Positions 1,778 to 37,111 of a DNA stretch of 64,000 bases are shown in pieces. Below the pieces are notes generated by a model, which saw only the letters and a list, made by a program, of their open reading frames with translations, did no database searches and was not told where the DNA came from. The DNA comes from Minisyncoccota bacterium (GTDB lineage Bacteria > Patescibacteriota > Minisyncoccia > Phycocordibacterales > UBA9973): the NCBI GenBank assembly GCA_041674285.1, contig JBAYVZ010000005.1:5176-69175 (forward strand), written 5' to 3'. Positions within the stretch are counted from its first letter, which is position 1. Each line of letters begins with the position of its first letter. The position numbers and the translations under genes were made by a program.

Positions 1778-1899
1778 GGTCCCGTTAGAGATGCGTTGTT
1801 GTAAATTTACGGGATAGTGTAAAATAAGAAGAGGAACATATTATTAACAATAATTAACAAGATACGGAAGTCTTTGGACTTCCTATCTCTAACGGGATG
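1778..1899 (+). repeat. A-element copy A1 (about 122 nt; TIR CCCGTTAGAGAT / ATCTCTAACGGG; ends on the ATG of the NYN gene)
   Basis: 5' arm at 1781-1792, subterminal hairpin GGAAGTC-tttg-GACTTCC, 3' arm at 1885-1896, ATG at 1897. Confidence 0.8.
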
Positions 1900-2400
1900 A
1901 TAATCAAACATAAAGAACAAAGAGTTGGAGTGTTTATTGACACAGCCAATCTATATCACAGCGCAAAAAACCTCTATAAGAGAAAGGTAAACTTTGGTGC
2001 TGTACTAAAAGACGCAGTAGCAGGACGTAAACTAGTCCGTGCAACAGCATACGTGATCACTAGTGAGGGAGGCGACGAAAAGAGTTTCTTTGAAGCTCTC
2101 ACAAAGCTAGGCATAGAGACAAAGACAAAAGACCTCCAAGTATTTTCAGGTGGAGCAAAGAAGGGCGACTGGGATGTAGGTATAGCAGTAGATGCTATGA
2201 AGATGGCACCCCGTCTCGATGCAGTAGTACTAGTAGCAGGAGATGGGGACTTTATCCCTCTCGTAGAGTACCTCCGAAATACATATGGCACACAAGTAGA
2301 AGTGGTTTCATTTGGGAAATCTGCTTCTATGAAACTAAAAGAAGCTGCCGATGACTTCCTAGACTTATCAGTGAGTCCTCAAAAATACCTAATGAGATAA
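1897..2400 (+). CDS. NYN/LabA-like (DUF88) domain protein
   Basis: VGVFIDTANLYHSAK ... VLVAGDGDFIPLVEYLR ... VEVVSF is the typical NYN/LabA pattern. Confidence 0.55.
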   Translation: MIIKHKEQRVGVFIDTANLYHSAKNLYKRKVNFGAVLKDAVAGRKLVRATAYVITSEGGDEKSFFEALTKLGIETKTKDLQVFSGGAKKGDWDVGIAVDAMKMAPRLDAVVLVAGDGDFIPLVEYLRNTYGTQVEVVSFGKSASMKLKEAADDFLDLSVSPQKYLMR

Positions 2401-2405: not shown

Positions 2406-3320
2406 ATGGAAAAGCTTTGGCCAATCACATTAACGAGGAAAATATCTGATATACACTGCGGTGGTTTCACCATGGCAGAGGAAGAGAGTCTCGGCTTCAA
2501 AGCAGGTGAATTATTTGAGGCACCGAATGAGCTTTTTGAACTAGTGACATTTCACAAGAAAAATCTTTCAACAAATTTACATAAATACAAAGAGGTAATA
2601 ATAAAAAATAACGATTACACCGAGGTCAGACCTGGGGTTTTTGCTCATGCAGGTGCAGTTATAGATGAGCAAGTGGTCTTTAATACAAAAAATGGCTTGG
2701 TCATAGTAGAAAAAGGGGCGCATATAAATCCATTTAATTATATAGCTGGGCCAGTACGTATAGACGAGAGTGCGACAATTAACCCGCATTCAAATATTTC
2801 AAATTCTTATATAGGTAAATACTGCAAAGTGGGAGGTGAAGTCTCAAATTCTATAATAGAGTCATACAGCAACAAAGGTCATCATGGATACCTGGGTGAT
2901 AGTTATGTAGGCTCATGGGTAAATATCGGTGGGGGCGCGTCAACATCAAATCTTAAAAATACATACGGAAAGATAAAGCTAGGTGGGGTAGAGACCGGGG
3001 AGCAATTCCTAGGATCAGTCATCGCCGACCATGCAAAAATAGCCATAAATGTATCTATATATACAGGAAAAGTAATCGGCGTGGCCGCTCACGTATATGA
3101 CACAGTCACAATAGATGTGCCCTCATTTACAAATTATATTTCAAAAGAAAATATGACTATTTTACCCGTTGATATAGCAGTAAAAATAGCAGGACGAATG
3201 CAAGAACGTCGGGGTATAAATACTATAGAGGAGGACAAAGCTATGCTATCATATGCTTATAATGCCACCGAAGGTGAACGAAAGAGTGCTGGCGTTACAG
3301 AAGGTAAATTAGCATTTTAA
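2406..3320 (+). CDS. Left-handed beta-helix (hexapeptide-repeat) protein; putative sugar nucleotidyl- or acyl-transferase family
   Basis: Repeating [LIV]G-x4 hexapeptides (IGKYCKVGGEVSNSII, VGSWVNIGGGAS, IAINVSIYTGKVIGVAA). Specificity is not determinable. The start may be the internal Met at 2469. Confidence 0.4.
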   Translation: MEKLWPITLTRKISDIHCGGFTMAEEESLGFKAGELFEAPNELFELVTFHKKNLSTNLHKYKEVIIKNNDYTEVRPGVFAHAGAVIDEQVVFNTKNGLVIVEKGAHINPFNYIAGPVRIDESATINPHSNISNSYIGKYCKVGGEVSNSIIESYSNKGHHGYLGDSYVGSWVNIGGGASTSNLKNTYGKIKLGGVETGEQFLGSVIADHAKIAINVSIYTGKVIGVAAHVYDTVTIDVPSFTNYISKENMTILPVDIAVKIAGRMQERRGINTIEEDKAMLSYAYNATEGERKSAGVTEGKLAF

Positions 3321-3340
3321 ACCAAAAAATTGCAAATTTT

Positions 3341-3446
3341 TTCTTCGCATATCTTTTCTAGGGTACACAAATTTTTTGCTAAAAATTTGTGAGAGTCTAG
3401 CGCCGGTCGCGCTGTAGAAGCCCCTAAAAAAGATAAGCGTGCGACA
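3341..3446 (+). repeat. B-element copy B1 (about 105 nt structured repeat)
   Basis: TTCTTCGCATATCTTTTCTAGGG ... hairpin CACAAATTTTT-tgct-AAAAATTTGTG ... GCGCC-ggtc-GCGC ... CCCCTAAAAAAGATAAGCGTGCGACA. Flanked by the imperfect direct repeat TTGCAAATTTT / ATTTGCAATTTTT. Confidence 0.7.
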
Positions 3447-4416
3447 ATTTGCAATTTTTAATAAAACTATGTCAAAAATTTTAATTATTGGGGCGTGCGG
3501 TCAGATAGGGGTAGAGCTTACTTTGGCCCTACGAAAGATTCATGGTAATGAAAATGTAATAGCATCTGATATCCGTGGAGAGCATGCCATGCTCGCAGGT
3601 ACTGGACCATATTACACACTAGATGCTACTGACGCAGAGGGGACTCGAGCGATAGTAGAAAAAGAAGGAGTCACAGATATATACTTACTCGCTGCATTAC
3701 TATCTGCAACAGGGGAGAAGAATCCAAAGCTATGCTGGGATTTGAACATGAATAGTCTCAGACAAATTCTAGATCTAGGGGTAGAAAAGAAATTAAAAAT
3801 CTTTTGGCCTAGCTCTATCGCAGTATTCGGACCGACAACACCTAGAGAAAATACACAACTTCACACTATCATCGAGCCTACTACTATGTACGGAGTGACA
3901 AAGTACGCAGGTGAGATGCTCTGCCAATACTATGCAAATAAATTCGGACTAGATGTCCGCTCTGTGCGATACCCGGGCCTCATCAGCTGGAAGAGTGAAC
4001 CAGGTGGTGGAACTACAGACTATGCAGTAGAGATATTTTATGAAGCTATCAAGAATAAAAAATATTCTTGCTTCCTCTCAGAAAATACTTATCTACCGAT
4101 GATGTATATGGATGATGCGATCCGTGCGACGATCGAGCTGATGCAGGCGCCACTTGAAAATATAAAGACTCGAATGTCATACAACTTATCTGCAATTAGC
4201 TTTTCTCCTACTGAGATAGCAGGTGAATTGAAAAAGCACATGCCAGAATTTGAGATATCTTATGCTCCGGATCACCGCCAAGCTATCGCCAACTCTTGGC
4301 CTGCATCTATCGATGATTCTGATGCACGTGCAGACTGGGGATGGAAGCATGAATTTGATCTAGAAAAAATGACAGAGGTAATGCTTGAGAATTTAAAAAA
4401 TAAATTAGCCAAATAG
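3439..4416 (+). CDS. tdh: L-threonine 3-dehydrogenase (NAD-dependent epimerase/dehydratase-fold type)
   Basis: N-terminal Rossmann ILIIGACGQIGVEL and the catalytic YGVTKYAGEMLCQYY motif. It is followed by kbl, and the two form the threonine-to-glycine pathway. The real start is probably the Met at 3469 (MSKILIIG), because the 5' extension overlaps copy B1. Confidence 0.6.
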   Translation: MRQFAIFNKTMSKILIIGACGQIGVELTLALRKIHGNENVIASDIRGEHAMLAGTGPYYTLDATDAEGTRAIVEKEGVTDIYLLAALLSATGEKNPKLCWDLNMNSLRQILDLGVEKKLKIFWPSSIAVFGPTTPRENTQLHTIIEPTTMYGVTKYAGEMLCQYYANKFGLDVRSVRYPGLISWKSEPGGGTTDYAVEIFYEAIKNKKYSCFLSENTYLPMMYMDDAIRATIELMQAPLENIKTRMSYNLSAISFSPTEIAGELKKHMPEFEISYAPDHRQAIANSWPASIDDSDARADWGWKHEFDLEKMTEVMLENLKNKLAK

Positions 4417-4429
4417 ATACTATAAATTC

Positions 4430-4537
4430 GTCGCACGTGTATCTTTTTTAAGGGCTTCTGCAGCGCGACTGGCGCGAAGCCTGAGTAAATTTTTAGCAAA
4501 AAATTTACGTACCTTAAAAAAGATATACGAAGAAAGA
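4430..4537 (-). repeat. B-element copy B2 (opposite orientation to B1/B3) between tdh and kbl
   Basis: The reverse complement aligns to B1/B3 along its length (GTAAATTTTT-agca-AAAAATTTAC hairpin and the GCGCGACTGGCGC hairpin). Flanked by the direct repeat TATAAATT. Confidence 0.7.
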
Positions 4538-4554
4538 ATTTATAAATTATTCAT

Positions 4555-5763
4555 ATGTACACAAAAAAATTTACAGAGTCACTCTCTCTTGATTTGAAAA
4601 ATATCGAAGAGAGTGGAAAGTTCAAAAAAGAAAAGATGATCGAGAGAGTTCAAGGTTCTCATATCAAGATAGGGGAGCAGGATTTTATCATGTACGCCTC
4701 AAACAATTATCTCGGACTAGCAGGTAGTAAATTCTCAACAGATGCAAACAAAGAGGGATTGGAGAAATACGGTTTTGGTATGGCATCGGTCAGATTCCTA
4801 TCCGGCACTCAGACTATACATAGACAACTAGAGGAGAGGATAGCAAAATTCATCGGCACAGAAGATGCGATCATATATTCTACAGGATTCATGGCCAACC
4901 TTGGATTGTTTGCTACGATAATAAATGAACCTCGTGGAAGTGAAGCTCCCTACAAAGATGTTATATATAGCGATGCAAACAATCATGCTTCAATCATCGA
5001 TGCATTCAAGCTCTGCAAAAAAGAAAATCTAGACAAGAGAATCTACAAGGGTGGGGACCTAGCGATGCTTGAGCAATTCCTGTCAGAAGATAAAGATAAA
5101 AATTACAGAACAAAGATTATCGCTACGGACGGGATATTCAGCATGGAGGGGAATTCTGCTGATTTGAAAAAGCTTGTAGATCTAGCTGAAAAGTACGAGG
5201 CCCTACTATTTGTAGACGACGCACACGGTATAGGAGTGATGGGTGATCTCGGAAGAGGTACACCAGAGAGCTGTGATGCACTCGGGAAAGTGGACATCGT
5301 ATCTGGTACATTTGGCAAGGCGCTCGGTGGAGCAGTCGGTGGGTATATAGGAGGTAGTAGAGAGCTCGTAGAATATCTGCGACAAAAATCTCGCACATAC
5401 CTATTCTCAAATGCGATGCCAGCATCGATAGCATACACGGGGATAAAGACACTTGACCTACTAGAGAGCGATGATACACCAATCAAAAAAGTAAAAGAAA
5501 ATGCATTATACTTCAGACAGAAACTCGAAGAGAACAATCTGCCGACACTGCACGGCAATCATGCTATCGTCCCACTGATGATAGGTGATGCGAACAAAGC
5601 AGCCGAGATGTCTAGAAAACTTTTTGATGATGGTATCTATGCAGTCTCACTATCATTCCCAGTAGTACCAGAGGGCGAAGCACGAATCAGATTCCAACTT
5701 TCTGCACTACATACAAAAGAGGACATAGACGAGACAATAGAAAAAATAAAGAAACTATACTAA
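4555..5763 (+). CDS. kbl: 2-amino-3-ketobutyrate CoA ligase (glycine C-acetyltransferase); alpha-oxoamine synthase family
   Basis: 402 aa PLP fold-type I; SNNYLGL, STGFMANLG and FSMEG...DDAHG motifs. Its position beside tdh favours Kbl over BioF. Confidence 0.6.
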   Translation: MYTKKFTESLSLDLKNIEESGKFKKEKMIERVQGSHIKIGEQDFIMYASNNYLGLAGSKFSTDANKEGLEKYGFGMASVRFLSGTQTIHRQLEERIAKFIGTEDAIIYSTGFMANLGLFATIINEPRGSEAPYKDVIYSDANNHASIIDAFKLCKKENLDKRIYKGGDLAMLEQFLSEDKDKNYRTKIIATDGIFSMEGNSADLKKLVDLAEKYEALLFVDDAHGIGVMGDLGRGTPESCDALGKVDIVSGTFGKALGGAVGGYIGGSRELVEYLRQKSRTYLFSNAMPASIAYTGIKTLDLLESDDTPIKKVKENALYFRQKLEENNLPTLHGNHAIVPLMIGDANKAAEMSRKLFDDGIYAVSLSFPVVPEGEARIRFQLSALHTKEDIDETIEKIKKLY

Positions 5764-5800
5764 AAAAATAAAAGCCACAATTGTGGCTTTTATTTTTTTA
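5764..5800. terminator. Bidirectional hairpin terminator between convergent kbl and glmS
   Basis: AAAAGCCACAATTGTGGCTTTT is a perfect hairpin flanked by A-runs and T-runs on both sides. Confidence 0.6.
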
Positions 5801-7660
5801 TTCTACTGTTACGCTCTTTGCTAAATTACGAGGCTTGTCTACATCTGCTCCACGTAGTACTGCCGTATGATATGCCAGTAGCTGTAGTGGTATCACAGAT
5901 AGTATCGGTATCCACTCATCAGGAACATTTGGAATCTCGACAATGTGATCAAAAATATTTTTCAATTCTTCGTTGCCACTGCGTACTATACCGATAGTCA
6001 GCGCTCCACGAGCTTTGACCTCTTGGACATTTGATATTACTTTTTCAATCAATGCATTATTTGTAGCGACTACAATAACAGGGAAATCTTTTTCTACTAG
6101 TGCTATAGGACCATGCTTCATCTCTGCTGCTGGATAACCCTCAGCATGGATATAAGAAATCTCTTTTAATTTCAACGCCCCCTCGAGTGCGACAGGGAAT
6201 AGTACTCCGCGCCCCAGGAACAATGCATTATCTTTTTCTTTTAAAATCTCGGCGATCTTTTTAACCTTTCCTTCTTCTTTCAATACTTGCTCTACCTTGT
6301 CTCCGATAGTAGACAATTCTTGAACCAAGAATACATATTCATCATGGCCTAGAGTGTCGCGATCTTTTGCTAGTAGTAGAGAGAGTAGTGATAGTATCAC
6401 AGCCTGACCAGTAAAAGCTTTTGTCGATGCTACTCCGATCTCGGGACCGACGTGGATATATGAACCTGCGTCAGTGATACGTGCGATAGATGAGCCGACT
6501 ACATTTGATATACCATATGTCATAGCACCGGATTCACGAGCGATCTGTAGTGCAGCTAGTGTATCTGCTGTCTCTCCGGATTGTGATATAGCTATTACGA
6601 TATCGTCTTTGTAAATTATCGGATTGCGATAACGGAACTCTGATGCATACTCTACTTCTACTGGAATCCTAGCTAGAGTCTCTATCAGATATTCACCGAC
6701 GAGCCCTGCGATCCAAGATGTGCCACAAGCAGTGATGATGATCCTCTTTGCATTTTTAAATTTATCAGCCATCTCTTCTATTCCACGTAGATGCACAGTA
6801 TTATCGGGCAGTATGTGGCCACGGAGTGCGTCGTGTATAGTACGAGCCTGCTCAAAAATTTCTTTTTGCATATAGTGATCGTATCCACCTTTTTCCAGCA
6901 TCTCAGCTTCGATATTCAGCTCCTCTATGAATGGAGTATGAGCTACACCATCGATAGACTTTACATAGAATTCACCATTACGCATTACTTTTGCCATATG
7001 ACCATCTTCTAGGTAGATCACACTCTTTGTGTACTCTACGATAGGGGACGCATCCGAAGCGATAAAAAATTCTTTTTCTCCGATGCCGATCACGAGTGGG
7101 CTACCCTTGCGTGCTACGATCAATGTATCGGGATCTTTTTCGTCTAGCACTACGATCGCATAAGCTCCTACTACCTGAGATAGGGCCTCGCGAACAGCCT
7201 CTTCGGTACTTAGATTGTCCTTTATTTTTACTTTTTCTATCAGACGGGCAAGGACTTCTGTATCAGTGTCACTCTTGAAAGTATCTCCATCTTTGAGGAG
7301 GGCAGTCTTTAAAGTAAGATAATTTTCTATAATACCGTTATGTATCAAGGCTATAGACCCAGATTCTGAGAGGTGGGGGTGAGCATTGCGATCCTCTGGT
7401 GCACCATGGGTGGCCCAGCGAGTATGACCTATGCCTATATTCCCAGCAGGATTATGGTCTTTTGCATACTTAAAAAGCTCGGCAACCTTGCCTTTCTTCT
7501 TGAAAACATTCATTTTTCCATCTAGAAGTGCAACTCCAGCTGAATCATACCCTCTATATTCGAGCCTTTCTAAACCCTTTATAATAATGGGAAAGGCTTC
7601 TCTTTTTCCTATGTATCCGATTATTCCACACATATAATATAATAAGCGGGCCAAATCCAT
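5798..7660 (-). CDS. glmS: Glutamine--fructose-6-phosphate aminotransferase (isomerizing)
   Basis: MCGIIGY N-terminal nucleophile glutaminase domain plus two SIS domains. The real start is probably the MCGIIGY Met at about 7633. Confidence 0.9.
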   Translation of the reverse strand: MDLARLLYYMCGIIGYIGKREAFPIIIKGLERLEYRGYDSAGVALLDGKMNVFKKKGKVAELFKYAKDHNPAGNIGIGHTRWATHGAPEDRNAHPHLSESGSIALIHNGIIENYLTLKTALLKDGDTFKSDTDTEVLARLIEKVKIKDNLSTEEAVREALSQVVGAYAIVVLDEKDPDTLIVARKGSPLVIGIGEKEFFIASDASPIVEYTKSVIYLEDGHMAKVMRNGEFYVKSIDGVAHTPFIEELNIEAEMLEKGGYDHYMQKEIFEQARTIHDALRGHILPDNTVHLRGIEEMADKFKNAKRIIITACGTSWIAGLVGEYLIETLARIPVEVEYASEFRYRNPIIYKDDIVIAISQSGETADTLAALQIARESGAMTYGISNVVGSSIARITDAGSYIHVGPEIGVASTKAFTGQAVILSLLSLLLAKDRDTLGHDEYVFLVQELSTIGDKVEQVLKEEGKVKKIAEILKEKDNALFLGRGVLFPVALEGALKLKEISYIHAEGYPAAEMKHGPIALVEKDFPVIVVATNNALIEKVISNVQEVKARGALTIGIVRSGNEELKNIFDHIVEIPNVPDEWIPILSVIPLQLLAYHTAVLRGADVDKPRNLAKSVTVE

Positions 7661-7799
7661 CTGCTTTGTTGTCGATTCCGTTTACTCCCGCAATGTAGAT
7701 AACTACATCTTGGTCATAATACTCATCGACGCCTCGCATCTGCATTCGTCCGGCTGATTATATGATTATACATTTAAACCATTTATTTTAAAAATCCTT

Positions 7800-7904
7800 T
7801 CTTCGCATATCTTTTCTAGGGTACGTAAATTTTTTGCTAAAAATTTACTCAGGCTTCGCGCCAGTTGCGCTGTAGAAGCCCCTAAAAAAGATACGCGTGC
7901 GACA
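7800..7904 (+). repeat. B-element copy B3
   Basis: Near-identical to B1. The hairpin co-varies (GTAAATTTTT-tgct-AAAAATTTAC versus CACAAATTTTT/AAAAATTTGTG in B1). Confidence 0.7.
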
Positions 7905-7933
7905 GATTTTGCAAAATGATAAAATATAAAGAA

Positions 7934-8057
7934 GGTCCCGTTAGAAGTCATATATGTCATTCAAGCTACGGAGACTGTTTAAATAAATTATTTATATTCG
8001 ATATTATTAGTTAAATTATGTACGATAATCTAAAGATTATCTACTTCTAACGGGATG
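7934..8057 (+). repeat. A-element copy A2 (TIR variant CCCGTTAGAAGT / ACTTCTAACGGG)
   Basis: Arms at 7937-7948 and 8043-8054 with a compensatory AGT/ACT change; subterminal hairpin GATAATCT-aaa-GATTATC; ATG at 8055. Confidence 0.8.
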
Positions 8058-9080
8058 TTAAAAAACGATATTAAAAAATACGATTCAAAGAATGTACTAG
8101 CTTCAGTCGAGCTTTTTTATGCCCAATGCAAAAAATCATGGGACACGACTATTTATAAAAATGATAAGAATGAGATATCAAATATATTAGTCATAGGTAT
8201 GGGTGGATCCGCACTGGGTGCACAGATAATACAGTCACTAAATATATTGAAGGTGCCTATGCATATATCAAATGAGTACACGATACCAGAATGGGTAAAT
8301 AAAAATACCTTGGTCTTGGCGATGAGCTACTCTGGTAGCACAGAGGAGACAGTCGAGGCACTGAACTATGCATTAACAAAAAAGGCAAACATCGTAGGTA
8401 TAACTACGGGAGGTAAACTAGCAGAAATCTTGAAAAAGAAAAAGCTTCCACTATGCCTGATCGACAAGACGGACAATCCCTGCGGTCAACCAAGATTTGC
8501 AGTGGGGTCTATGATGATGATCATGCTGCGAATTTTTATCCATCACAAATTGTGCAGATTAAATACAAAAGATATAACGGGGGCACTTTCAGAATTGGAA
8601 AATGAAAAGGTGCTAAATGATAAATCTCTAGAAAAAAAATATAATCAGATAAACAAATTAAAAGACAAGATCCTCGTACTAGTATACGCCGAGCATCTAT
8701 CCCATGTCGGACTATTCGCCAGGAATCAGATTCACGAGACATCAAAAACTTTTGCAGTCACACACAATATACCAGAGCTGAATCATCATCTGATGGAGGG
8801 ACTATCATACCCCGCAGTAAATAAAATTATTCTGCATTTTATATTTACAGAATCCACACTCTACAGTGACAAAATACAAAAGAGAATCAGTGTGACAAAA
8901 GAAGTACTAAAAAAACAAAAGATAAAATCAAGTGTAGTAGAGGCGAGAGGGGGCAGTCATCTATCTGAAATATTGATCCAGATACTAGACTCTATGTATT
9001 TTGCTTATCTACTAGGGATAGCAAATAAAAAAGACCCGAGTGACATCCGCTGGGTAGATTATTTTAAGGCACGGATATAA
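8055..9080 (+). CDS. SIS-domain bifunctional phosphoglucose/phosphomannose isomerase-like protein
   Basis: ILVIGMGGSALGAQII and VLAMSYSGSTEET SIS motifs; 341 aa, archaeal/CPR-type PGI/PMI architecture. Confidence 0.55.
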   Translation: MLKNDIKKYDSKNVLASVELFYAQCKKSWDTTIYKNDKNEISNILVIGMGGSALGAQIIQSLNILKVPMHISNEYTIPEWVNKNTLVLAMSYSGSTEETVEALNYALTKKANIVGITTGGKLAEILKKKKLPLCLIDKTDNPCGQPRFAVGSMMMIMLRIFIHHKLCRLNTKDITGALSELENEKVLNDKSLEKKYNQINKLKDKILVLVYAEHLSHVGLFARNQIHETSKTFAVTHNIPELNHHLMEGLSYPAVNKIILHFIFTESTLYSDKIQKRISVTKEVLKKQKIKSSVVEARGGSHLSEILIQILDSMYFAYLLGIANKKDPSDIRWVDYFKARI

Positions 9081-9127
9081 TTGACATAATCAACATAGTA
9101 ATCTACAATCATAAAAACGCTATAATT

Positions 9128-9280
9128 ATGATCACTTTTATTAAATGGGTGGTAATTATAGTCATAATAATTATCATCTACAGATTTGTAAAAAACTATG
9201 GATATTATCTATACATTCGTGGACCTATCGACAGAAAACCGAGATGGAAAACAGTATGGAAAGTATTAACTAAAAAATGA
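9128..9280 (+). CDS. Small (50 aa) hydrophobic membrane peptide, hypothetical
   Basis: MITFIKWVVIIVIIIIIYRFVK... has a single TM and is followed immediately by a terminator. It is below the ORF-track length cutoff. Confidence 0.3.
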   Translation: MITFIKWVVIIVIIIIIYRFVKNYGYYLYIRGPIDRKPRWKTVWKVLTKK

Positions 9281-9306
9281 CCGTACCAAAAGTACGGTTA
9301 TTTTTA
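9281..9306 (+). terminator. Rho-independent terminator
   Basis: CCGTAC-caaaa-GTACGG followed by TTATTTTTA. Confidence 0.55.
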
Positions 9307-9465
9307 TCCCTTTAAAAAAAGGCTGTTTTCTGCTAATATACTTATATTAGTATGTTAATCAGCTTTCCTCCGGACAATTAGAGTTGAAACCTACATTAAG
9401 GAAGTCGGACTTCATTAAATACAGGGTGTTTCAAAGCTAGAGTCTGGAGAAAAGCTATATATAGT

Positions 9466-11607
9466 ATGCAAAGTAAAGAATACAGTGTAGAGATAGGCGG
9501 CAAACAAGTTGTCGCGGTTTTTAGTGACCTAGCAAACCAAGCCAATGGCTCTGTGATGCTAAAGTGCGAGGGTACAGTAGTCATGGCCACAGCCGTGATC
9601 AGTCGTGATGGCAAGTCCAATCCAGGCTTCTTTAACCTGACAGTAGAATACCTTGAAAAGTTCTATGCTTCAGGTAAAATCCTCGGATCTCAATTCACTC
9701 GTCGTGAAGGACGTCCTAGTGAGCAGGCAATTCTAGCTGCTCGTGTGATCGACCGCACAATCCGTCCACTGTTTGAGCACCACATCAAAAATGCAGTCCA
9801 AGTGATAGTGACTGTGATAGCAGTAGGCAAGGCAGACCCAAAAACTCTGGGTATCAATGCTGCATCTATCGCACTCTGTACATCTGACATACCATGGCAT
9901 GGACCAATCGGTGCAGTGCATATGTCTATGACAAAGGACGCTCCGACAATAGCTATCAACAATTATATCCCCCAGGCAGACGAGCCAGTATACACACTCG
10001 ACCTGATGGTCTGTGGAAAGGATCGCAATATCGCGATGATCGAAGCTATGGCATTTGAACTCTCTGAAGATGTGATCGGTGAAGGTTTCGATCGTGCAGT
10101 TGCAGAGATAGAAAAGTGGGAGAATTTCCAAAAGATGCTGGTAGCAGAATTCGGAAAAACAAAACTACTATTTCCAAAGCCAGAGGCACCGGCAGAGCTA
10201 TCAGAACTATTCGCAGAAAAAATAAAACCGATTCTAGATGAAGGGGCATTCGGACCAAATAGTAAAAAAGTTCTAGATGATGCATGGCACATCTGGAAGG
10301 GAATAGTAGATGAGAAATACGCAGACATGCCCGAGACAAAATTCGTAGCCGAAGACTACATCGAAGAATATATAAACAAGGTTATTCATGATGCGGCACT
10401 CCTAGAATCAAAACGTCCAGACCTAAGAAAGCTCGATGAAGTCCGCAGTCTGTATGTAAAAGCTGGTGGTATATCAGAAGTTCTCCATGGCTCTGGAATA
10501 TTTTACCGCGGAGAAACTCACGTCATGTCAGTGCTGACACTCGCAGGACCAGAGAGCATGTTCACAATCGATGGTATAGAATTTTCTGCAAAGAAAAGAT
10601 TTATGCATCACTACAACTTTCCTCCGTATTCAGCCGGAGAGACTGGTCGCGTAGGTGGTATCAATCGCCGAGAGATGGGTCATGGATTCCTCGCAGAAAA
10701 AGCACTCATACCAGTACTACCGACAAAAGAAATTTTCCCTTACACTATTCGTGTAGTATCTGAATCAACAGCTTCAAATGGATCGACCTCACAGGCGAGT
10801 ATCTGTGCTTCGACAATAGCTATGATGGATGGGGGCGTACCGATCAAAACTCCTGTCGCAGGAATTTCTATCGGAGTGATGATCGATGAAAAAGACAACA
10901 CAAAGTACGCACTCATCTCTGATATCCAAGGACCAGAGGATCACTACGGAGACATGGACTTTAAAGTCGGAGGCACTGTGAATGGTATCACTGCTATCCA
11001 GCTCGATATCAAAGTCGGAGGCATCCCAGTATTTATTTTGAAGGATGCGCTCATTCGTGCAAAAGCTGCTCGACTACAAATACTAGAAGCAATCACAAAA
11101 GAGATTCCTACACACCGTGCAGACATCTCTGAAAATGCTCCAAAGATTTTGACTGTGAAAATAAACAAGGATCAGATCGGTATGGTCATCGGCCCAGGAG
11201 GTAAAAATGTAAACATGATTCGTGAGAAAACTGGGGCAGAGATTACAATCGAAGAAGACGGAACAGTATTTGTAACAGGTAAAAATGGTGCAGCAGAAAA
11301 AGCACAAAAGATAATCGCGGACATGACTCATGAATACAAGGTAGGTGAAGAGGCTACAGGTACTGTGGTCAAGCTCATGGAATTCGGAGCATTCGTATCT
11401 ATCGCATCTGGCACAGAGGGACTAGTACACATCTCAGAGATCGCACCATTCCGTGTAGAGAAAGTTTCTGATATGCTTAAAGAAGGAGACACAGTTCCAG
11501 TGAAGATAATCAAGGTAGATGAAAAAGGAAGACTCAACCTTTCTATAAAAGAAGCCAACAAAGATTTCTTCAAACCAAAGGCTGCCACTCCAACAGAAGC
11601 AAAATAA
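9466..11607 (+). CDS. pnp: Polyribonucleotide nucleotidyltransferase (PNPase)
   Basis: 713 aa; two RNase PH domains followed by C-terminal KH (IGMVIGPGGKNVNMIREKTGA) and S1 domains. Confidence 0.9.
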   Translation: MQSKEYSVEIGGKQVVAVFSDLANQANGSVMLKCEGTVVMATAVISRDGKSNPGFFNLTVEYLEKFYASGKILGSQFTRREGRPSEQAILAARVIDRTIRPLFEHHIKNAVQVIVTVIAVGKADPKTLGINAASIALCTSDIPWHGPIGAVHMSMTKDAPTIAINNYIPQADEPVYTLDLMVCGKDRNIAMIEAMAFELSEDVIGEGFDRAVAEIEKWENFQKMLVAEFGKTKLLFPKPEAPAELSELFAEKIKPILDEGAFGPNSKKVLDDAWHIWKGIVDEKYADMPETKFVAEDYIEEYINKVIHDAALLESKRPDLRKLDEVRSLYVKAGGISEVLHGSGIFYRGETHVMSVLTLAGPESMFTIDGIEFSAKKRFMHHYNFPPYSAGETGRVGGINRREMGHGFLAEKALIPVLPTKEIFPYTIRVVSESTASNGSTSQASICASTIAMMDGGVPIKTPVAGISIGVMIDEKDNTKYALISDIQGPEDHYGDMDFKVGGTVNGITAIQLDIKVGGIPVFILKDALIRAKAARLQILEAITKEIPTHRADISENAPKILTVKINKDQIGMVIGPGGKNVNMIREKTGAEITIEEDGTVFVTGKNGAAEKAQKIIADMTHEYKVGEEATGTVVKLMEFGAFVSIASGTEGLVHISEIAPFRVEKVSDMLKEGDTVPVKIIKVDEKGRLNLSIKEANKDFFKPKAATPTEAK

Positions 11608-11612
11608 AAACT

Positions 11613-11738
11613 ATGGATCCCGTTAGAGATGTGCTTGTCATATTTTTAATTGAGGTGAATTATAAAAATTAAGGTCGTATTTTTAGCATAAACTAATAAG
11701 ATACGGTAATGTAAACATTACCTATCTCTAACGGGATG
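11613..11738 (+). repeat. A-element copy A3
   Basis: ATGGA-TCCCGTTAGAGAT ... GGTAATGT-aaac-ACATTACC-t-ATCTCTAACGGG-ATGGA, with the 5-nt direct repeat ATGGA at both ends. Confidence 0.85.
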
Positions 11739-12617
11739 GACAAAAAAAATAACCCGACAAAAATACAAAACATCCACACCTATTCATCCGACATGGCAGA
11801 TGCAGTACGCGAACAAGAAGCGACGGTTATTAAAATCGCCCTAGCAGAAAAAGAGAGGAAGGATAGAGAAAAATATGTAGAAGAAAATAAAAATAATTTT
11901 TCTTCAAATATTTTTTATGTTATAGGAGGAGTTGTACTAATAGTATCATCCATCTGGGCCACTTCTTACTTTATACAAAAAGGTAAAGAGGCATCCTCGA
12001 TCGCAGTTAAAAAAACTACAGTAGATACTCTGATAAAGACAGATGAACAGATGATGCTAGATGTGACAAGTATCACAAACAAGCAGGACCTAATAAACGC
12101 AATAAAAACTGAAAAATTAAAAGAAATTAAAATTGGAAATATAAAGTCGATAGTTCTATATACAAATACAGAGACTGGGGTAAAAATGCTAACCACCACA
12201 GACCTACTGGAAAGACTCTCGATAAATGTTCCTGGAGCTCTAGCTCGATCACTACATGAGAGTTTCATGCTGGGAGTTCATCAGATAGGAGGAGAGAGAA
12301 ACTTATTCCTAGTATTATCTACAAATGACTACAATTCATCTTTTGCAGGGATGTTATCATGGGAACCTACCATCCTCTCTTCTATGTTTAGTCTATTTAG
12401 TGTGAATGTTTCATCTAGCCTAGAAGGTGTATTTGAAACACCCTGGGGAGATAAGATCATTTTAAACAAAGATTCTAGAGTATTATCTCTACCTGATGGT
12501 ACAGAATTGCTCTCTTACATGTTTATAGACAAGAATAAATTGATTTTAACTGACAAAGAGGAAACAATAAAAGAAGTGATTCAAAGACTAGTTACACAGA
12601 ACATAAAACCCATATAA
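11736..12617 (+). CDS. Hypothetical membrane-anchored protein
   Basis: Single TM (VIGGVVLIVSSIWATSYFI) after a charged N-terminus. No recognisable domain. Confidence 0.35.
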   Translation: MDKKNNPTKIQNIHTYSSDMADAVREQEATVIKIALAEKERKDREKYVEENKNNFSSNIFYVIGGVVLIVSSIWATSYFIQKGKEASSIAVKKTTVDTLIKTDEQMMLDVTSITNKQDLINAIKTEKLKEIKIGNIKSIVLYTNTETGVKMLTTTDLLERLSINVPGALARSLHESFMLGVHQIGGERNLFLVLSTNDYNSSFAGMLSWEPTILSSMFSLFSVNVSSSLEGVFETPWGDKIILNKDSRVLSLPDGTELLSYMFIDKNKLILTDKEETIKEVIQRLVTQNIKPI

Positions 12618-12651
12618 TTGCTGTTTTAATTATAAATGATAAAATTTAACT

Positions 12652-12993
12652 ATGGAAAACTACAAAATAAAACTCGAAGAGGAAAAGCAAATATTAGAGG
12701 AAGAGCTTTCTGGCCTAGGCAAGAAAAATACAGAGACAGGACAGTGGCAAGCAGTCAGTGACGACGCCGGGGCAACAGAAGCAGACGAAAGCGACATGGA
12801 CGACAGAGGTGAGGACTATGAAGAAAAATCTTCTCTGATCCGAGTCCTGTCAAAGAGACTCACTGGTATACTAGTAGCACTCGACAAGATTGAAGGTGGA
12901 AAGTATGGCAAGTGTGAAAAATGTGGCCTTGATATCGAAGCCGAGAGACTAGAAGCAAACCCCTCAGCACCGACTTGTAAAAATTGTATGTAA
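12652..12993 (+). CDS. DksA/TraR-family C4 zinc-finger protein
   Basis: C-terminal CEKCGLDIEAERLEANPSAPTCKNC CxxC-x17-CxxC after an acidic coiled region. Confidence 0.55.
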   Translation: MENYKIKLEEEKQILEEELSGLGKKNTETGQWQAVSDDAGATEADESDMDDRGEDYEEKSSLIRVLSKRLTGILVALDKIEGGKYGKCEKCGLDIEAERLEANPSAPTCKNCM

Positions 12994-12994
12994 C

Positions 12995-13022
12995 AAAAAA
13001 ATCCGCAATTGCGGATTTTTTT
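12995..13022. terminator. Hairpin terminator
   Basis: AAAAAAATCCGCAATTGCGGATTTTTTT. Confidence 0.6.
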
Positions 13023-13054
13023 ATTTATAAATCATTCAAAAGAAAAAATTAAAT

Positions 13055-13150
13055 ATTTCCTGAGTAGGGGGTCCTGCGAGCGGCCGGCTAGCAATTTCAG
13101 AAAATTCTTAGCAAAGAATTTTCGTACCCGGAGCAGGAAGATATTTCATT
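13055..13150 (-). repeat. B-element copy B4 (divergent; same orientation as B2)
   Basis: GAAAATTCTT-agca-AAGAATTTTC hairpin and a GTACC block with GC-rich flanks. Aligns to B2 with compensatory changes in the hairpin. Confidence 0.45.
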
Positions 13151-13201
13151 TTTTCTTTAAAATATTTTGAATTTTTATATTGATAGAGTTATAATTATTT
13201 T

Positions 13202-14773
13202 ATGTCATTCTCGCGAATATATTCTGCGCAGACACATCTACTAAAAGGCAAAGTAGTAACTATCGAAGTGGACATCACAAAGGGAACACTCCATGCATTT
13301 ACTCTTGTCGGACTACCAGACAAGGCCGTCGATGAATCCAAAGACCGCATGAGCTCAGCTCTGAAAAATTCTGGATTCAATTCTCCTAAAAATCAAAATC
13401 AAAAAATAGTCATCTCACTGTCTCCGGCAGATTTAAAAAAGGAGGGACCGTATTTTGATCTGGGTATCGCACTCGCATATCTACTGTCTGCAGGGGAGAT
13501 TGATTTCGATCCAGAGGGAAAAATATTTCTAGGTGAACTATCACTCAATGGTGAACTACAAAATATAAAAGGTGCACTGCCGCTGGCCGAGGAGGCCAAG
13601 AAGCGAGGCTTCAAAGAAATATTTTTACCAATCGGCAATGCGACAGAAGCAGCTCTCGTGTCGGGAATAAAAATTTATGGAGCTCGAAATCTCCGCGAAG
13701 TCATCGATCATCTATCTATACCTCGTAGGGACAAGAAGGGGAATTTATTGGAGCCAGAAAAAAATAAAATCGCACAGACACCCGAGACAAAAATAATTTT
13801 TGAAAATAAAAAACATGCGATAGATTTTTCTGACATTCGGGGACAAGAGGGTGCAAAGCGTGGATTAGAAATTGCAGCAGCCGGTGGACACAACATAGCG
13901 ATGAGTGGATCACCCGGCACAGGCAAGACGATGCTCGCACGAGTCTTCTCGCACATCCTACCCGAACTTTCCAAAGAAGATATTTTAGAAATCACAGGAA
14001 TACATTCTGTCGTCGGACTACTCGATGGAGCACTCGTGACCGAATCTCCATTCCGTGCACCACATCATACTGCGAGCTATGTATCGATGATCGGTGGTGG
14101 AACTAATCCAAAGCCAGGCGAGGTCACCCTCGCGCACAAGGGGGTTTTATTTTTAGATGAGTTCCCGGAGTTTGAGAAAAAAGTTCTCGAATCATTACGA
14201 CAACCACTCGAAGACAATATCGTATCCATCTCTCGTGCACGAGGGTCTGCAATATTTCCATCAAATTTTATTCTAGTTGCTGCGATGAATCCATGCCCGT
14301 GTGGCAATCGCGGTGACAAGAAAAAAATGTGTATCTGCAAACCGATGGACCTGGATAGATACAACAGAAAACTTTCCGGACCGATTCTAGATCGTATCGA
14401 CATCTGGGTAAATGTATCGTCAGTGGACTACGACAAACTCGCGAGTGAAGGGGTAGAGGGAGACAGAACAGAGACTATCAAGGAGCGCGTAGCCCGAGCC
14501 CGCAATATCCAGGAGAAGAGATTCAAGAGTGCTACAAGAAATATCAAGACAAATAGTGAGATGAATGTAAAAGAATTGAATGCATTCGCACCACTCTCGC
14601 CCGAGGTTCGTGAGATACTGCACAGCAGTGCCGAGCGACTACAGTTATCCGCTCGTGCATATCATCGAGTGATAAAGCTCGCCCGCACTATCGCAGATCT
14701 CGAGAGCTCTGAGCACATCACCACTCCGCATATCCTCGAAGCTCTGCAGTATAGACCGCGGACGCAGAATTAA
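13202..14773 (+). CDS. comM: Mg-chelatase-like AAA+ ATPase YifB/ComM
   Basis: GSPGTGKTM Walker A, VLFLDEFPEF Walker B, and a C-terminal ChlI/ComM region. Confidence 0.8.
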   Translation: MSFSRIYSAQTHLLKGKVVTIEVDITKGTLHAFTLVGLPDKAVDESKDRMSSALKNSGFNSPKNQNQKIVISLSPADLKKEGPYFDLGIALAYLLSAGEIDFDPEGKIFLGELSLNGELQNIKGALPLAEEAKKRGFKEIFLPIGNATEAALVSGIKIYGARNLREVIDHLSIPRRDKKGNLLEPEKNKIAQTPETKIIFENKKHAIDFSDIRGQEGAKRGLEIAAAGGHNIAMSGSPGTGKTMLARVFSHILPELSKEDILEITGIHSVVGLLDGALVTESPFRAPHHTASYVSMIGGGTNPKPGEVTLAHKGVLFLDEFPEFEKKVLESLRQPLEDNIVSISRARGSAIFPSNFILVAAMNPCPCGNRGDKKKMCICKPMDLDRYNRKLSGPILDRIDIWVNVSSVDYDKLASEGVEGDRTETIKERVARARNIQEKRFKSATRNIKTNSEMNVKELNAFAPLSPEVREILHSSAERLQLSARAYHRVIKLARTIADLESSEHITTPHILEALQYRPRTQN

Positions 14774-23240: not shown

Positions 23241-23264
23241 CTTTTGTTCTGTATAATAGAACCA

Positions 23265-34690: not shown

Positions 34691-34697
34691 AAAATAG

Positions 34698-35979: not shown

Positions 35980-35994
35980 ACACCAATCATATAC

Positions 35995-37110: not shown

Positions 37111-37111
37111 T

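What the first reader, a model, noticed from the sequence alone, without database searches (positions are those of the whole stretch)
3341..13150. Second structured repeat family (B-element, about 105 nt, 4 copies in both orientations) with TSD-like direct repeats
The copies are B1 3341-3446 (+), B2 4430-4537 (−), B3 7800-7904 (+) and a divergent B4 at about 13055-13150 (−).

- Conserved stems. An outer stem (CATATCTTTTCTAGGG / CCCCTAAAAAAGATA, with a recurring A-C mismatch). An internal hairpin with co-varying stem and a fixed TGCT/AGCA loop (GTAAATTTTT/AAAAATTTAC; CACAAATTTTT/AAAAATTTGTG; GAAAATTCTT/AAGAATTTTC). A GC hairpin (GCGCC-N4-GCGC).
- Flanks. Short AT-rich direct repeats flank the copies: TATAAATT on both sides of B2, and TTGCAA(A)TTTT on both sides of B1.
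- Placement. Orientation is not tied to the downstream gene, which fits a DNA-level mobile repeat rather than a leader RNA. B2 sits between tdh and kbl. B3 lies directly upstream of A2 in the glmS/pgi gap.
Basis: seen in the sequence. Interest (0 to 1): 0.55.

Follow-up and report, generated by a model that had tools for sequence, protein, structure and literature searches.

The report
Mobile structured hairpin repeat of Paceibacteria
A 120-135-nt repeat that folds into a long hairpin capped by a three-way junction lies between core genes of many ultra-small Paceibacteria (candidate phyla radiation); it is gained, lost, flipped and copied between close relatives like a small mobile element, yet its structure and sequence are kept by selection, and it matched no family in Rfam and nothing in my literature searches.

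Summary
The four copies are real: covariance model 81-112 bits, next-best window hit 27 bits.

**Structure.** A long, variable outer stem leads to a conserved three-way junction with a GC hairpin and an A/U hairpin with an AGCA loop. Across 46 copies from about 25 Patescibacteria MAGs, 93% of cells pair and 28 of 31 pairs show double changes. The structure is strand-specific: G·U 62 versus A·C 12, and G·A 67 versus C·U 1.

**Flanks.** The "TSD-like direct repeats" are palindrome-containing inverted arms of the outer stem. No target-site duplication exceeds chance.

**Mobility.** Orientation is unrelated to neighbouring genes, which are core housekeeping genes. Close relatives show empty sites, an inverted copy and a different subtype at one site. 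B1 and B3 are recent local copies of the older B2. Resident copies still diverge 4-10 times more slowly than fourfold-degenerate sites.

**Verdict.** It is not in Rfam or viral contigs, and I found no literature on it. It is best read as an undescribed, bcr1/ERIC-like, strand-specifically structured mobile repeat. The mobilising enzyme and the RNA-versus-ssDNA level are unresolved.

The parts
3325..3459 (-). B1, full hairpin unit. Core is 3347-3439. Outer arms are 3325-3338 and 3446-3459, a perfect 14-bp inverted repeat (AAAAATTGCAAATT / AATTTGCAATTTTT). It fills the LbH|tdh spacer and is antisense to both genes.
   Evidence: R1 scores 106.2 bits. The fold is -40.1 kcal/mol on the - strand versus -35.6 on the + strand; the extended fold is -53.1. 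The site is empty in L118-L122, L003, L022 and L040-L043, and holds a different B subtype in L038.
4421..4544 (+). B2, full hairpin unit in the tdh|kbl spacer, in sense orientation. It is the oldest resident copy. Outer arms are 4421-4429 / 4536-4544 (TATAAATTC / GAATTTATA).
   Evidence: R1 scores 110.7 bits. The fold is -43.2 kcal/mol, z -6.6. Copies at the same site occur in L038, L119-L122, L003, L022 and L042/43; the copy is inverted in L041, L020 and L039; the site is empty in L040 and in all relatives with 54-58% kbl identity.
4436..4453 (+). B2, P1 5' strand. It pairs with 4512-4529 (18 bp). The sequence is variable across the family and co-varies.
   Evidence: MFE structure. All 17 P1 pairs show double changes across 46 copies.
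4454..4480 (+). B2, P2 domain. P2a is GCTTC (4454-4458) paired with GAAGC (4476-4480). P2b is GCGC (4463-4466) paired with GCGC (4472-4475). The loop is GACTG (4467-4471).
   Evidence: all 4 P2b pairs co-vary, for example GCGC, GAGC/GCTC and CGAC/GTCG. The junction-closing pair C·G alternates with G·C, 30 versus 6 copies.
4485..4508 (+). B2, P3. This is a 10-bp A/U hairpin with an AGCA loop (4495-4498) and is the most conserved module of the family. It is followed by the junction bases GTA (4509-4511).
   Evidence: The consensus is ..GAGnAAATTTTTAGCAAAAAATTTnnGTACCC. Copies found independently of the search pattern show compensated variants, such as C-AGCA-G closing pairs and AGTA or ACCA loops.
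4512..4529 (+). B2, P1 3' strand.
7791..7910 (-). B3, full hairpin unit in the divergent glmS|pgi spacer, on the glmS-sense strand. Core is 7805-7897. It is a recent copy of B2.
   Evidence: R1 scores 111.6 bits. It is 91% identical to B2, whereas the same-site L122 copy of B2 is only 77% identical to window B2. It is present in L038, L008 and L118; the site is a 26-nt empty spacer in L122. It differs at 6 of 120 positions from L038, against 18.2% divergence at fourfold sites (P = 7e-5). One pair runs U-A, U·G, C-G across window, L118 and L038.
13038..13158 (+). B4, a divergent subfamily. Core is 13052-13144. It lies between the canonical terminator of the dksA-like gene (12996-13023) and a promoter-like site for comM (13167-13195).
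   Evidence: R1 scores 80.6 bits. The fold is -32.0 (core) and -42.0 (extended) kcal/mol. The JAGOUR01 copy at the same site (L034) differs at 3 of 121 positions, against 26.6% divergence at fourfold sites (P = 8e-13).

Best explanation
B is a small, non-coding, non-autonomous mobile repeat of Paceibacteria (Parcubacteria group, candidate phyla radiation).

**Unit and structure.** The unit is the whole 120-135-nt hairpin, and one defined strand carries the structure.
- A 20-40-bp outer stem has free sequence but maintained pairing. It contains conserved purine-purine internal loops.
- The stem is capped by a compact three-way junction: GGGG | C..P2 (GC hairpin)..G | AG | P3 (A/U hairpin, AGCA loop) | GUA | CCC.

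**Proposed mechanism (inferred).**
- The conserved apical junction is the module recognised by a trans-acting factor that copies the element. The stem only has to pair.
- Copying goes through a single-stranded intermediate of the structured strand, or through replication template switching at the hairpin.
- New copies land in very short spacers next to stop or start codons, often close to the donor and inverted, and leave no target-site duplication.

**After insertion.**
- Shown: the copy is retained under purifying selection.
- Inferred: when read through by neighbouring transcription, either strand gives a very stable RNA hairpin. That hairpin could act as a 3'-end barrier or an RNase III-type processing site.

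**What is shown and what is inferred.**
- Shown: family membership, structure, strand specificity, gain/loss/inversion/local duplication, absence of TSD, and in-situ constraint.
- Inferred: the nature of the intermediate, the recognising factor, and any effect on neighbouring genes.
For: **Family and structure**
- There are 4 window copies. A pattern scan found 35 loci in 20 Patescibacteria assemblies, all with full-length model hits. Further copies were found with no pattern bias in kbl/tdh-anchored loci.
- In 46 copies, 93.1% of cells pair and 28 of 31 pairs have double changes. None of 500 shuffles reached these values, and slid controls pair at only 47-62%.

**Strand specificity**
- G·U+U·G number 62 versus A·C+C·A 12, and A·G+G·A number 67 versus C·U+U·C 1.
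- 37 of 41 copies fold better on the model strand, by 6.2 kcal/mol on average.

**Not gene-linked**
- No copy lies inside an ORF, and orientation is mixed.
- Neighbouring genes are diverse and, read by eye, are housekeeping genes: DnaK, EF-P, L11, FtsZ, NusA, TrxB, SOD.

**Mobility**
- The LbH|tdh site is empty (8-20-nt spacers) in relatives with 91-98% tdh identity. It is filled by B1(-) in the window and by a different subtype (+) with different arms in L038, about 93% identical to the window in nucleotides across the main aligned block.
- The tdh|kbl site is filled (+) in many relatives, inverted in L041, L020 and L039, and empty (TAAtatATG) in L040.
- The glmS|pgi site is empty in L122.
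- B1, B2 and B3 are 85-91% identical to each other, whereas the same-site L122 copy of B2 is 77% identical. B1 and B3 are therefore recent local copies, 1.1 and 3.3 kb from B2 and both inverted relative to it.
- Head-to-head doublets occur in L028, L025 and L030. A decayed relic lies at L123:17383-17470. Three contigs end inside a copy.

**No TSD**.

**Constraint in situ**
- B4 diverges 2.5% against 26.6% at fourfold sites. B3 diverges 3-5% against about 18%.
- One B3 pair follows the path U-A, U·G, C-G across three relatives.

**Precedent**
- bcr1 of the Bacillus cereus group is described as a roughly 155-bp mobile repeat whose location is not conserved between strains. Compensatory changes keep a cruciform-like two-stem-loop RNA structure (PMC3184786, read).
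Against: - No mobilising gene was found. About 86 kb of the source contig carries no transposase Pfam hit, only a XerC/D-like integrase. No protein family recurs next to copies.
- Each copy or subfamily has its own perfectly complementary outer arms, which no known transposition mechanism readily explains.
- Copy number is low: 4 copies plus 1 relic in about 86 kb here, and at least 7 in the best-sampled MAG.
- Strong in-situ conservation, and long retention at tdh|kbl across genomes with only 72-74% kbl identity, would also fit a primarily host-beneficial RNA.
- The empty and filled sites in the more distant relatives cannot be aligned base by base, so exact insertion boundaries were not obtained.
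- No transcription data are available.
- Most non-window copies were first found with a pattern lying in P3, which inflates the apparent conservation of P3.
Confidence: 0.55

Rival explanations
1. B is primarily a host cis-acting RNA module: an mRNA 3'-end stabiliser, bidirectional terminator or RNase III processing site. It is selected for that role and is only occasionally duplicated.
For: - In co-directional spacers the core lies mostly 10-30 nt from the preceding gene's stop codon, in either orientation.
- Both strands form very stable hairpins, -24 to -73 kcal/mol.
- Outer arms tend to be A-rich on the 5' side and T-rich on the 3' side: 28 copies versus 11.
- Resident copies are as conserved as neighbouring promoter and terminator DNA, and 4-10 times more conserved than fourfold sites.
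- Neighbours include highly expressed core genes.
- SPRITE and REP are precedents for terminator-like or stabiliser repeats (PMC3184786).
Against: - The structure is constrained on one strand only, yet 11 of 27 co-directional copies put that strand antisense to transcription.
- The terminator scan calls none of the four copies.
- B4 sits directly after a canonical terminator and before a promoter-like site, so it may not be in any mRNA.
- The genome uses ordinary short GC hairpin plus T-tract terminators elsewhere, at 5761-5800 and 12996-13023.
- Close relatives do without the element at three of the four sites.
Confidence: 0.2
2. B is an independently transcribed small RNA gene family. The RNA is stable and structured, and acts in trans or binds a protein through the conserved three-way junction.
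For: - Conserved junction and loops with variable, co-varying stems is the classic signature of a structured RNA.
- Orientation is independent of neighbours.
- B4 lies between a terminator and a promoter-like site.
- Purifying selection acts on resident copies.
Against: - No conserved promoter motif lies upstream. Promoter-like matches in the region are no more frequent than in shuffles, 33 versus 29.4 ± 4.7.
- Head-to-head doublets leave only 29-56 nt between the two 5' ends, which is too little for two promoters.
- Copies are dispensable between genomes 91-98% identical in tdh.
- Some copies decay: the L038 copy of B2 has lost P2, and a relic lies at L123.
Confidence: 0.12
3. B is a classical DDE-transposase MITE with terminal inverted repeats and target-site duplication.
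For: - The element has long inverted ends.
- It is intergenic and occurs in both orientations.
- It shows presence/absence between relatives.
Against: - No TSD exceeds chance. The proposed TSDs are inverted arms.
- Terminal sequences differ between copies in the same genome, while the interior is conserved.
- The structure is strand-asymmetric.
- No parental IS or transposase was seen.
Confidence: 0.05
4. B is a leader RNA or riboswitch, or a double-stranded DNA operator, controlling the adjacent genes.
For: - B3 and B2 lie upstream of glmS and kbl on the sense strand.
- P3 is a 22-bp palindrome, which could bind a dimeric protein.
- Some neighbours are stress genes: dnaK, sodA, trxB.
Against: - Orientation and position are not fixed and neighbouring genes are unrelated in function.
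- No Rfam family matches.
- Symmetric compensatory changes together with G·U and G·A asymmetry indicate hairpin formation, not recognition of a double-stranded half-site.
- The same genes lack the element in close relatives.
Confidence: 0.03

Closest known systems
bcr1 (Group A interspersed repeat of the Bacillus cereus group, about 155 bp)
   Same: - Small, non-coding and multi-copy.
- Location is not conserved between closely related strains.
- Compensatory base changes keep a cruciform-like fold with two independent stem-loops on a closing stem.
- Some copies lose stability.
- No known transposase. (Description from PMC3184786.)
   Different: - bcr1 is flanked by 5-bp direct repeats; B has none.
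- bcr1 is reported as transcribed; for B this is unknown.
- The two occur in unrelated phyla. Sequence homology was not tested, because no bcr1 sequence was available to me.
- B has copy-specific outer arms and low copy number.
ERIC / Correia (NEMIS) / RUP bacterial MITEs
   Same: - Intergenic imperfect palindromes of 100-160 nt, found in both orientations.
- Predicted long RNA hairpins.
- Presence/absence between relatives (PMC3184786).
   Different: - Those families have conserved TIRs and TA or longer target duplications.
- In B the termini are the most variable part, the apex is the most conserved, there is no TSD, and the fold is a strand-specific three-way junction.
REP / REPIN elements mobilised by RAYT (HUH Y1) transposases, and IS200/IS605-derived palindromic elements
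   Same: - Hairpin-based, with no TIR or TSD logic.
- Strand-specific recognition of folded single-stranded DNA.
- Doublets in inverted orientation.
   Different: - REPs are GC-rich palindromes of about 35 nt (PMC3184786); from my own knowledge they carry a 5' GTAG tetranucleotide and a linked RAYT gene.
- B is a 120-135-nt AT-rich three-way junction.
- No Y1 transposase was seen in 86 kb of the source contig.
- Orientation alternates within 10 kb, so no strand bias is apparent.
SPRITE (pneumococcal Rho-independent-terminator-like element) and intrinsic terminators
   Same: - About 105 nt.
- Placed close to the 3' ends of genes.
- Hairpin with A-rich then T-rich polarity of the arms.
   Different: - None of the four copies meets the terminator criteria.
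- B also occurs in divergent promoter spacers (6 of 38 copies).
- It has a branched apex.

Membership tests
Any Rfam 15 RNA family (riboswitches, ribozymes, sRNAs, tRNA-like) | Covariance-model match at the gathering score, or at least a suggestive E-value | tested here: not met
   No hit in the whole window at gathering thresholds. No hit overlapping the element at E<=1 in L037, L030 or L007. ARAGORN finds no tRNA or tmRNA in the window.
Classical MITE | Target-site duplication flanking each copy | tested here: not met
Over 40 copies, the longest shared substring of the 10-nt flanks is 2.83 versus 2.97 ± 0.16 in mismatched controls. Abutting repeats of at least 2 nt occur in 12.5% versus 11.8%.
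Classical MITE | Terminal inverted repeats whose sequence is conserved among copies, as the transposase binding site | tested here: not met
   The ends are inverted repeats, but their sequence differs between copies, even within one genome: B1, B2, B3 and B4, and the 6 JANYAX01 copies. The apex is the conserved part.
Classical MITE | A related autonomous IS with the same ends in the same genomes | tested here: inconclusive
   No transposase Pfam hit in about 86 kb of the source contig. No recurrent neighbouring protein family. Whole genomes could not be searched.
Mobile interspersed repeat (general; bcr1-like class) | Presence/absence at corresponding sites in closely related genomes | tested here: met
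   The LbH|tdh, tdh|kbl and glmS|pgi sites are each empty in some relatives and filled in others. Also seen: an inversion, a subtype replacement and recent paralogous copies.
Mobile interspersed repeat (general; bcr1-like class) | Compensatory changes that maintain a branched, two-stem-loop secondary structure | tested here: met
   93.1% of cells pair and 28 of 31 pairs show double changes; none of 500 shuffles reached this. The alignment was fitted to the model, which favours the structure. The slid controls (47-62% paired) and RNAalifold on a MAFFT alignment agree.
bcr1 specifically | 5-bp direct repeats at both ends; restriction to the Bacillus cereus group; sequence homology | tested here: not met
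   No direct repeats. All hosts are Patescibacteria. Sequence homology could not be tested, because the primary paper is not held.
REP / REPIN-RAYT | Short GC-rich palindrome (about 35 nt per PMC3184786); 5' GTAG and a RAYT gene in the genome (from my own knowledge) | tested here: not met
   The element is 120-135 nt, 36-50% GC and branched. No Y1 transposase was seen in the sequence available. Genome-wide absence was not testable.
Riboswitch / cis-regulatory leader | Fixed sense orientation upstream of functionally related genes | tested here: not met
   Contexts are 16 sense, 11 antisense, 6 divergent and 5 convergent. Neighbouring genes are unrelated.
Intrinsic (Rho-independent) terminator | Short GC-rich stem followed directly by a T-tract | tested here: not met
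   None of the 12 terminator-like sites in 3000-13400 coincides with a B copy. Six copies lie in divergent spacers. Arm polarity, A-rich 5' and T-rich 3' in 28 copies versus 11, is only suggestive.
Independent sRNA gene | Own promoter and defined transcript ends | not testable with these tools
   No expression data are available. Promoter-like sites are not enriched. Doublets with 29-56-nt spacing argue against it.

The most novel reading that the evidence does not exclude
The conserved three-way junction is a 'handle' for a dedicated protein, acting on one of two substrates.

1. **RNA substrate.** The variable, perfectly paired 20-40-bp stem would be a processed precursor of copy-specific small duplex RNAs, analogous to a pri-miRNA or guide-RNA precursor in a bacterium.
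2. **Single-stranded DNA substrate.** This would define a new class of mobile element, recognised through an apical structured module rather than through its ends. That would explain why each copy can carry its own arms.

Neither is excluded. The strand-specific G·U and G·A pattern, the purine-purine internal loops at fixed distance, and the perfect copy-specific arms are all unexplained by known repeat classes.
Probability: 0.1. Interest if true: 0.8.

Novelty: new variant of a known kind. Interest (0 to 1): 0.5.

Why it matters
- **Unexpected host.** Candidate-phyla-radiation bacteria have genomes under about 1 Mb (from my own knowledge) and very short intergenic spacers. They are not known, as far as my literature searches could find, for interspersed structured repeats.
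- **What this family shows.** Such genomes still carry and exchange small mobile hairpin elements. This window holds two further families, A and C. The elements insert within a few bases of stop and start codons of core genes such as tdh/kbl, glmS, dnaK, ftsZ and nusA.
- **Unusual organisation.** The apex is conserved while the ends are free and no TSD is made, the reverse of the usual MITE layout. This points to an unusual recognition or copying mechanism.
- **Practical consequences.**
  - The family breaks MAG assemblies; three contigs end inside a copy.
  - It provides strain-level markers.
  - The covariance model built here (R2) could be used to annotate it.

Tried and rejected
- **Known RNA families.** Rfam at gathering and E-value thresholds gave nothing on the element. 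ARAGORN found no tRNA or tmRNA. I had noticed a passing resemblance of GGGGCU...CGACGG to the tmRNA 5' end and dropped it.
- **Ribozyme and operator look-alikes, by inspection only.** Junction lengths (0 / 1-2 / 3-4 nt) do not fit the hammerhead core. The only similarity to the CIRCE operator is TTAGCA.
- **Viral contigs.** A pattern scan gave 0 hits, so there is no phage link.
- **Promoter scan.** Matches are no more frequent than in shuffles. The TTTAAA-16-TATAAT and TTGAAT-17-TATAAT sites just outside B3 and B4 are only suggestive.
- **Extra covarying pairs or pseudoknots.** My filter was too permissive. Only one credible extra pair emerged, the junction-closing C·G alternating with G·C.
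- **Empty-site tests that did not work cleanly.**
  - L008/JAGOUR01 was not a clean empty site for B2. A GNAT acetyltransferase gene sits in that spacer instead.
  - Base-level insertion boundaries for B1 and B3 could not be mapped. The LbH 3' end and the glmS|pgi spacer in the empty-site relatives are too diverged or recombined to align.
- **Replication-strand bias.** dnaA and dnaN are in the window, but GC skew does not switch there. I make no replichore argument.
- **Outer arms as guides.** I considered scanning viral contigs for matches to the arms. They are too short and AT-rich to separate real matches from chance, so I did not run it.
- **Literature.** Searches for CPR or Patescibacteria structured repeats or MITEs found nothing relevant. 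The primary bcr1 paper is not held.

Full report

Yes, for the copies and their stems. The repeat finder recovers the B1/B3 direct matches (D8, D13). It also recovers the B2 inverted matches: I1 (126 nt, 90%), I5 and I11. The four stretches align with 77% mean column identity.

Each copy folds into a long outer stem that encloses two hairpins. Fold z-scores are -2.6 to -6.6. RNAalifold finds 31 pairs, 8 of them compensated among just these four copies.

A covariance model (R1) built from the four copies was run over all 64 kb with filters off. It finds exactly these four, at 80.6-111.6 bits. The next hit scores 27 bits and belongs to another repeat family.

**2. Corrections to the description**

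- **Strand.** All four copies are 2-8 kcal/mol more stable on that strand. The structured strand is therefore B1(-), B2(+), B3(-), B4(+).
- **Length.** Pairing continues into the flanks. The full hairpins are 3325-3459, 4421-4544, 7791-7910 and 13038-13158.
- **The supposed TSDs are inverted arms.**
  - B1 is bracketed by AAAAATTGCAAATT / AATTTGCAATTTTT. This is a perfect 14-bp inverted repeat but an imperfect direct one.
  - B2 is bracketed by TATAAATTC / GAATTTATA.
  - They resemble direct repeats only because each arm contains a palindrome (TTGCAA, or AATTTATAAATT).
  - Over 40 copies, the sequence outside the hairpin shows no direct repeat beyond mismatched controls.

**3. Where else is it?**

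The window is part of a 258-kb metagenome contig, ENA ERZ27247358 k141_1702343. The NCBI copy of the protein is labelled Candidatus Paceibacterota.

- **Species-representative genomes.** An exact-pattern scan gave 35 loci in 20 assemblies, all Patescibacteria: Paceibacteria, Nomurabacteria, Taylorbacteria and Adlerbacteria labels, plus two MAGs labelled Saccharibacteria. Every locus holds a full-length R1 hit, and six hold a second copy that the pattern had not found. One MAG (JANYAX01) has at least 7 copies on 6 contigs.
- **Loci fetched independently of the element.** These were anchored on kbl and tdh proteins and add further copies.
- **Same contig.** A decayed fifth copy lies about 69 kb away.
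- **Negative results.** No viral contig carries the pattern. Rfam 15 has no match. My literature searches found no description.

**4. Anatomy and constraint**

Across 46 copies (45 distinct), 93.1% of cells form standard pairs and 28 of 31 pairs show changes on both sides. None of 500 shuffles reached the observed values. Versions with partners slid by 1-3 columns pair at only 47-62%. The alignment was model-fitted, which leans towards the structure, but the controls are far away.

The consensus is: variable P1 – A-GGGG – C – P2 (an inner GC-rich 4-bp helix, loop GACG or GACUG) – G – AG – P3 (nAAAUUUUU-AGCA-AAAAAUUUn) – nGUA – CCC – P1'. The pair that closes the P2 domain co-varies, C·G in 30 copies and G·C in 6.

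Non-canonical pairs are strongly strand-asymmetric:

| Pair type in paired columns | Count | Mirror type on the other strand | Count |
|---|---|---|---|
| G·U + U·G | 62 | A·C + C·A | 12 |
| A·G + G·A | 67 | C·U + U·C | 1 |

In addition, 37 of 41 copies fold better on the model strand, by 6.2 kcal/mol on average. A single-stranded form of one defined strand is therefore what is constrained.

Outside the conserved core the stem continues for 6-40 bp. This outer part has copy-specific or subfamily-specific sequence. It often contains a 3×3 purine loop (GAA, GUA or GGA opposite GAA, GGA or GUA) about nine pairs from the core.

**5. Relation to genes**

No copy lies within an ORF. Relative to neighbours there are 16 sense and 11 antisense copies in co-directional spacers, 6 in divergent spacers and 5 in convergent ones.

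Neighbouring genes share no function. Read by eye, they are core genes: DnaK, EF-P, L11, FtsZ, NusA, TrxB, SOD and H+-pyrophosphatase. In the window the neighbours are tdh, kbl, glmS, pgi, a dksA-like gene and comM.

In co-directional spacers the core lies mostly 10-30 nt from the preceding stop codon, in either orientation. In several tdh|kbl copies the arm itself supplies the stop codon.

These facts exclude a leader or riboswitch. They also argue against a strand-specific role inside mRNAs.

**6. Mobility**

| Site | Filled | Altered | Empty |
|---|---|---|---|
| LbH\|tdh (B1) | B1(-) in the window | L038 (about 93% nt identity to the window): a different, B4-like subtype in (+) orientation with different arms | 8-20-nt spacers in L118, L119-121 (tdh 97-98%), L122 (91%), L040 and others |
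| tdh\|kbl (B2) | (+) in window, L038, L119-122, L003, L022, L042/43 | Inverted in L041, L020, L039; a GNAT gene instead in L008 and L118 | L040 (…TAAtatATG…) and all relatives with 54-58% kbl identity |
| glmS\|pgi (B3) | Window, L038, L008, L118 | – | L122 (26-nt spacer) |

- **Recent local copying.** B1, B2 and B3 are 85-91% identical to one another. The L122 copy at the B2 site is only 77% identical to window B2. B1 and B3 are therefore recent copies of a B2-like donor. They lie 1.1 and 3.3 kb away and are both inverted relative to B2.
- **Other signs of mobility.** Head-to-head doublets 29-56 nt apart occur in three other genomes. Three short contigs end inside the element.
- **No mobilising gene found.** No transposase appears in about 86 kb of this contig. 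No protein family recurs beside copies.

**7. Resident copies are not neutral**

| Comparison | Element divergence | Fourfold-site divergence in flanking genes | Binomial P |
|---|---|---|---|
| B4, window vs JAGOUR01 (L034) | 3 of 121 positions (2.5%) | 26.6% | 8e-13 |
| B3, window vs L038 | 6 of 120 (5.0%) | 18.2% | 7e-5 |
| B3, window vs L118 | 4 of 120 (3.3%) | 17.6% | – |

The binomial tests counted one alignment gap as an extra difference: for B3 versus L038, P(≤7) = 7e-5; for B3 versus L118, P(≤5) = 9e-6.

- This level of conservation matches the adjacent promoter and terminator DNA, which diverges 0-7%.
- One B3 base pair reads U-A in the window, U·G in L118 and C-G in L038. This is a compensatory path through a wobble that exists only on the model strand.
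- Decay also occurs. The L038 copy of B2 has its P2 hairpin replaced by unrelated sequence, and the L123 relic no longer folds significantly.

**8. Interpretation**

The best-supported reading is a small mobile repeat that is structured on one strand. The unit is the whole hairpin, and its conserved apical three-way junction is what a trans-acting factor recognises. It is copied without target duplication, often locally and in inverted orientation. Once inserted in the tiny spacers of these genomes it is retained under selection.

The intermediate (ssDNA, RNA, or template switching at a hairpin), the factor, and any effect on neighbouring transcripts are all inferred, not shown.

The main rivals are:
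- a primarily host-beneficial 3'-end or processing hairpin;
- an independent sRNA family.

Both fit the conservation data. Both fit less well with the antisense placements, the doublets, the dispensability between near-identical genomes and the lack of promoter signal.

A classical TIR/TSD MITE, a riboswitch or leader, a double-stranded DNA operator and a simple terminator each fail at least one tested defining feature (see the membership table).

**9. Comparison with known elements**

By description (review PMC3184786), the nearest analogue is bcr1 of the Bacillus cereus group. It is about 155 bp and its location is not conserved between strains. Compensatory changes keep a cruciform-like fold with two stem-loops. 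[quoted passage not shown]"

B differs from bcr1 in lacking the 5-bp direct repeats, in its host phylum and in its copy-specific arms.

B resembles ERIC, Correia and RUP in size and placement. It reverses their pattern of conserved ends and variable interior.

B shares hairpin logic and the lack of a TSD with REP/REPIN and IS200/IS605-derived elements. It shares neither their size nor an associated Y1 transposase in the sequence I could see.

**10. Verdict**

This is a real and apparently undescribed family. It is ordinary in kind, a small structured interspersed repeat. It is unusual in host and in organisation. The mechanistic question of how a copy acquires its own perfectly paired arms is unresolved.

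- Interest: 0.5.
- Novelty: new variant of a known kind.

Noticed in passing
window 1781-1912, 7932-8054, 11603-11751, 23255-23404, 34695-34837 (+); 43562-43721, 44792-44924 (-): The A-family repeat has conserved TIRs, CCCGTTAGAGAT / ATCTCTAACGGG. It is a clean insertion relative to close relatives: 7932-8054 is absent in L008, L038 and L118, and 11606-11736 is absent in L034. Its 3' end, ...CTAACGGGATG, supplies the ATG start codon of the downstream ORF for 6 of 7 copies (ORF starts at 1897, 8055, 11736, 23389 and 34822, and at 43583 on the - strand). This resembles the Neisseria REP2 and Borrelia IR repeats, which carry a promoter, RBS and ATG (PMC3184786).
   Followed up: partly
window 44476-44599, 51068-51193, 51763-51832: A third repeat family (C) has arms AATTCCCCTCTTGAGGGGTG / CACCCCTCAAGAGGGGAATT. 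It folds into a multi-branched hairpin of about 100 nt (-63 kcal/mol, z -7.7). Copies flank the rnpA/yidC-dnaA region and the DUF559 gene. It gave the only weak cross-hit to the B model, at 27 bits.
   Followed up: partly
window 43716-48193: yidC, rnpA (- strand) and dnaA, dnaN (+ strand) lie here, so the replication origin is probably near 45 kb. However, GC skew does not change sign there.
   Followed up: partly
window about 35900-43100: A run of conjugation or type-IV-secretion-like genes (PrgI, TraC-like, TraG-type P-loop ATPase, VanY peptidase) sits among large ORFs of 1000 aa with no Pfam hit.
   Followed up: no
L038:6043-6135 (site corresponding to window B2): This genome is about 93% identical to the window. 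Its B2 copy has the whole P2 hairpin (about 22 nt) replaced by unrelated AT-rich sequence, while the rest is nearly identical. The cause could be localised replacement or decay.
   Followed up: no
L008:860-1420 / L118:6956-7495: In JAGOUR01 and JAGOOI01 the tdh|kbl spacer holds a 179-aa GNAT acetyltransferase gene instead of B2. The kbl N-terminus there is also divergent, with only 61% overall identity. This spacer appears to be a recombination hot spot.
   Followed up: partly
window 7634-7763: The window and L118 carry about 130 extra nt between the glmS start codon and B3 that L038 lacks. I did not examine its nature.
   Followed up: no
window 5761-5800 and 12996-13023: Canonical bidirectional intrinsic terminators (A-tract, GC hairpin, T-tract) follow kbl/glmS and the dksA-like gene. 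This shows that the organism uses ordinary terminators alongside the B elements.
   Followed up: yes
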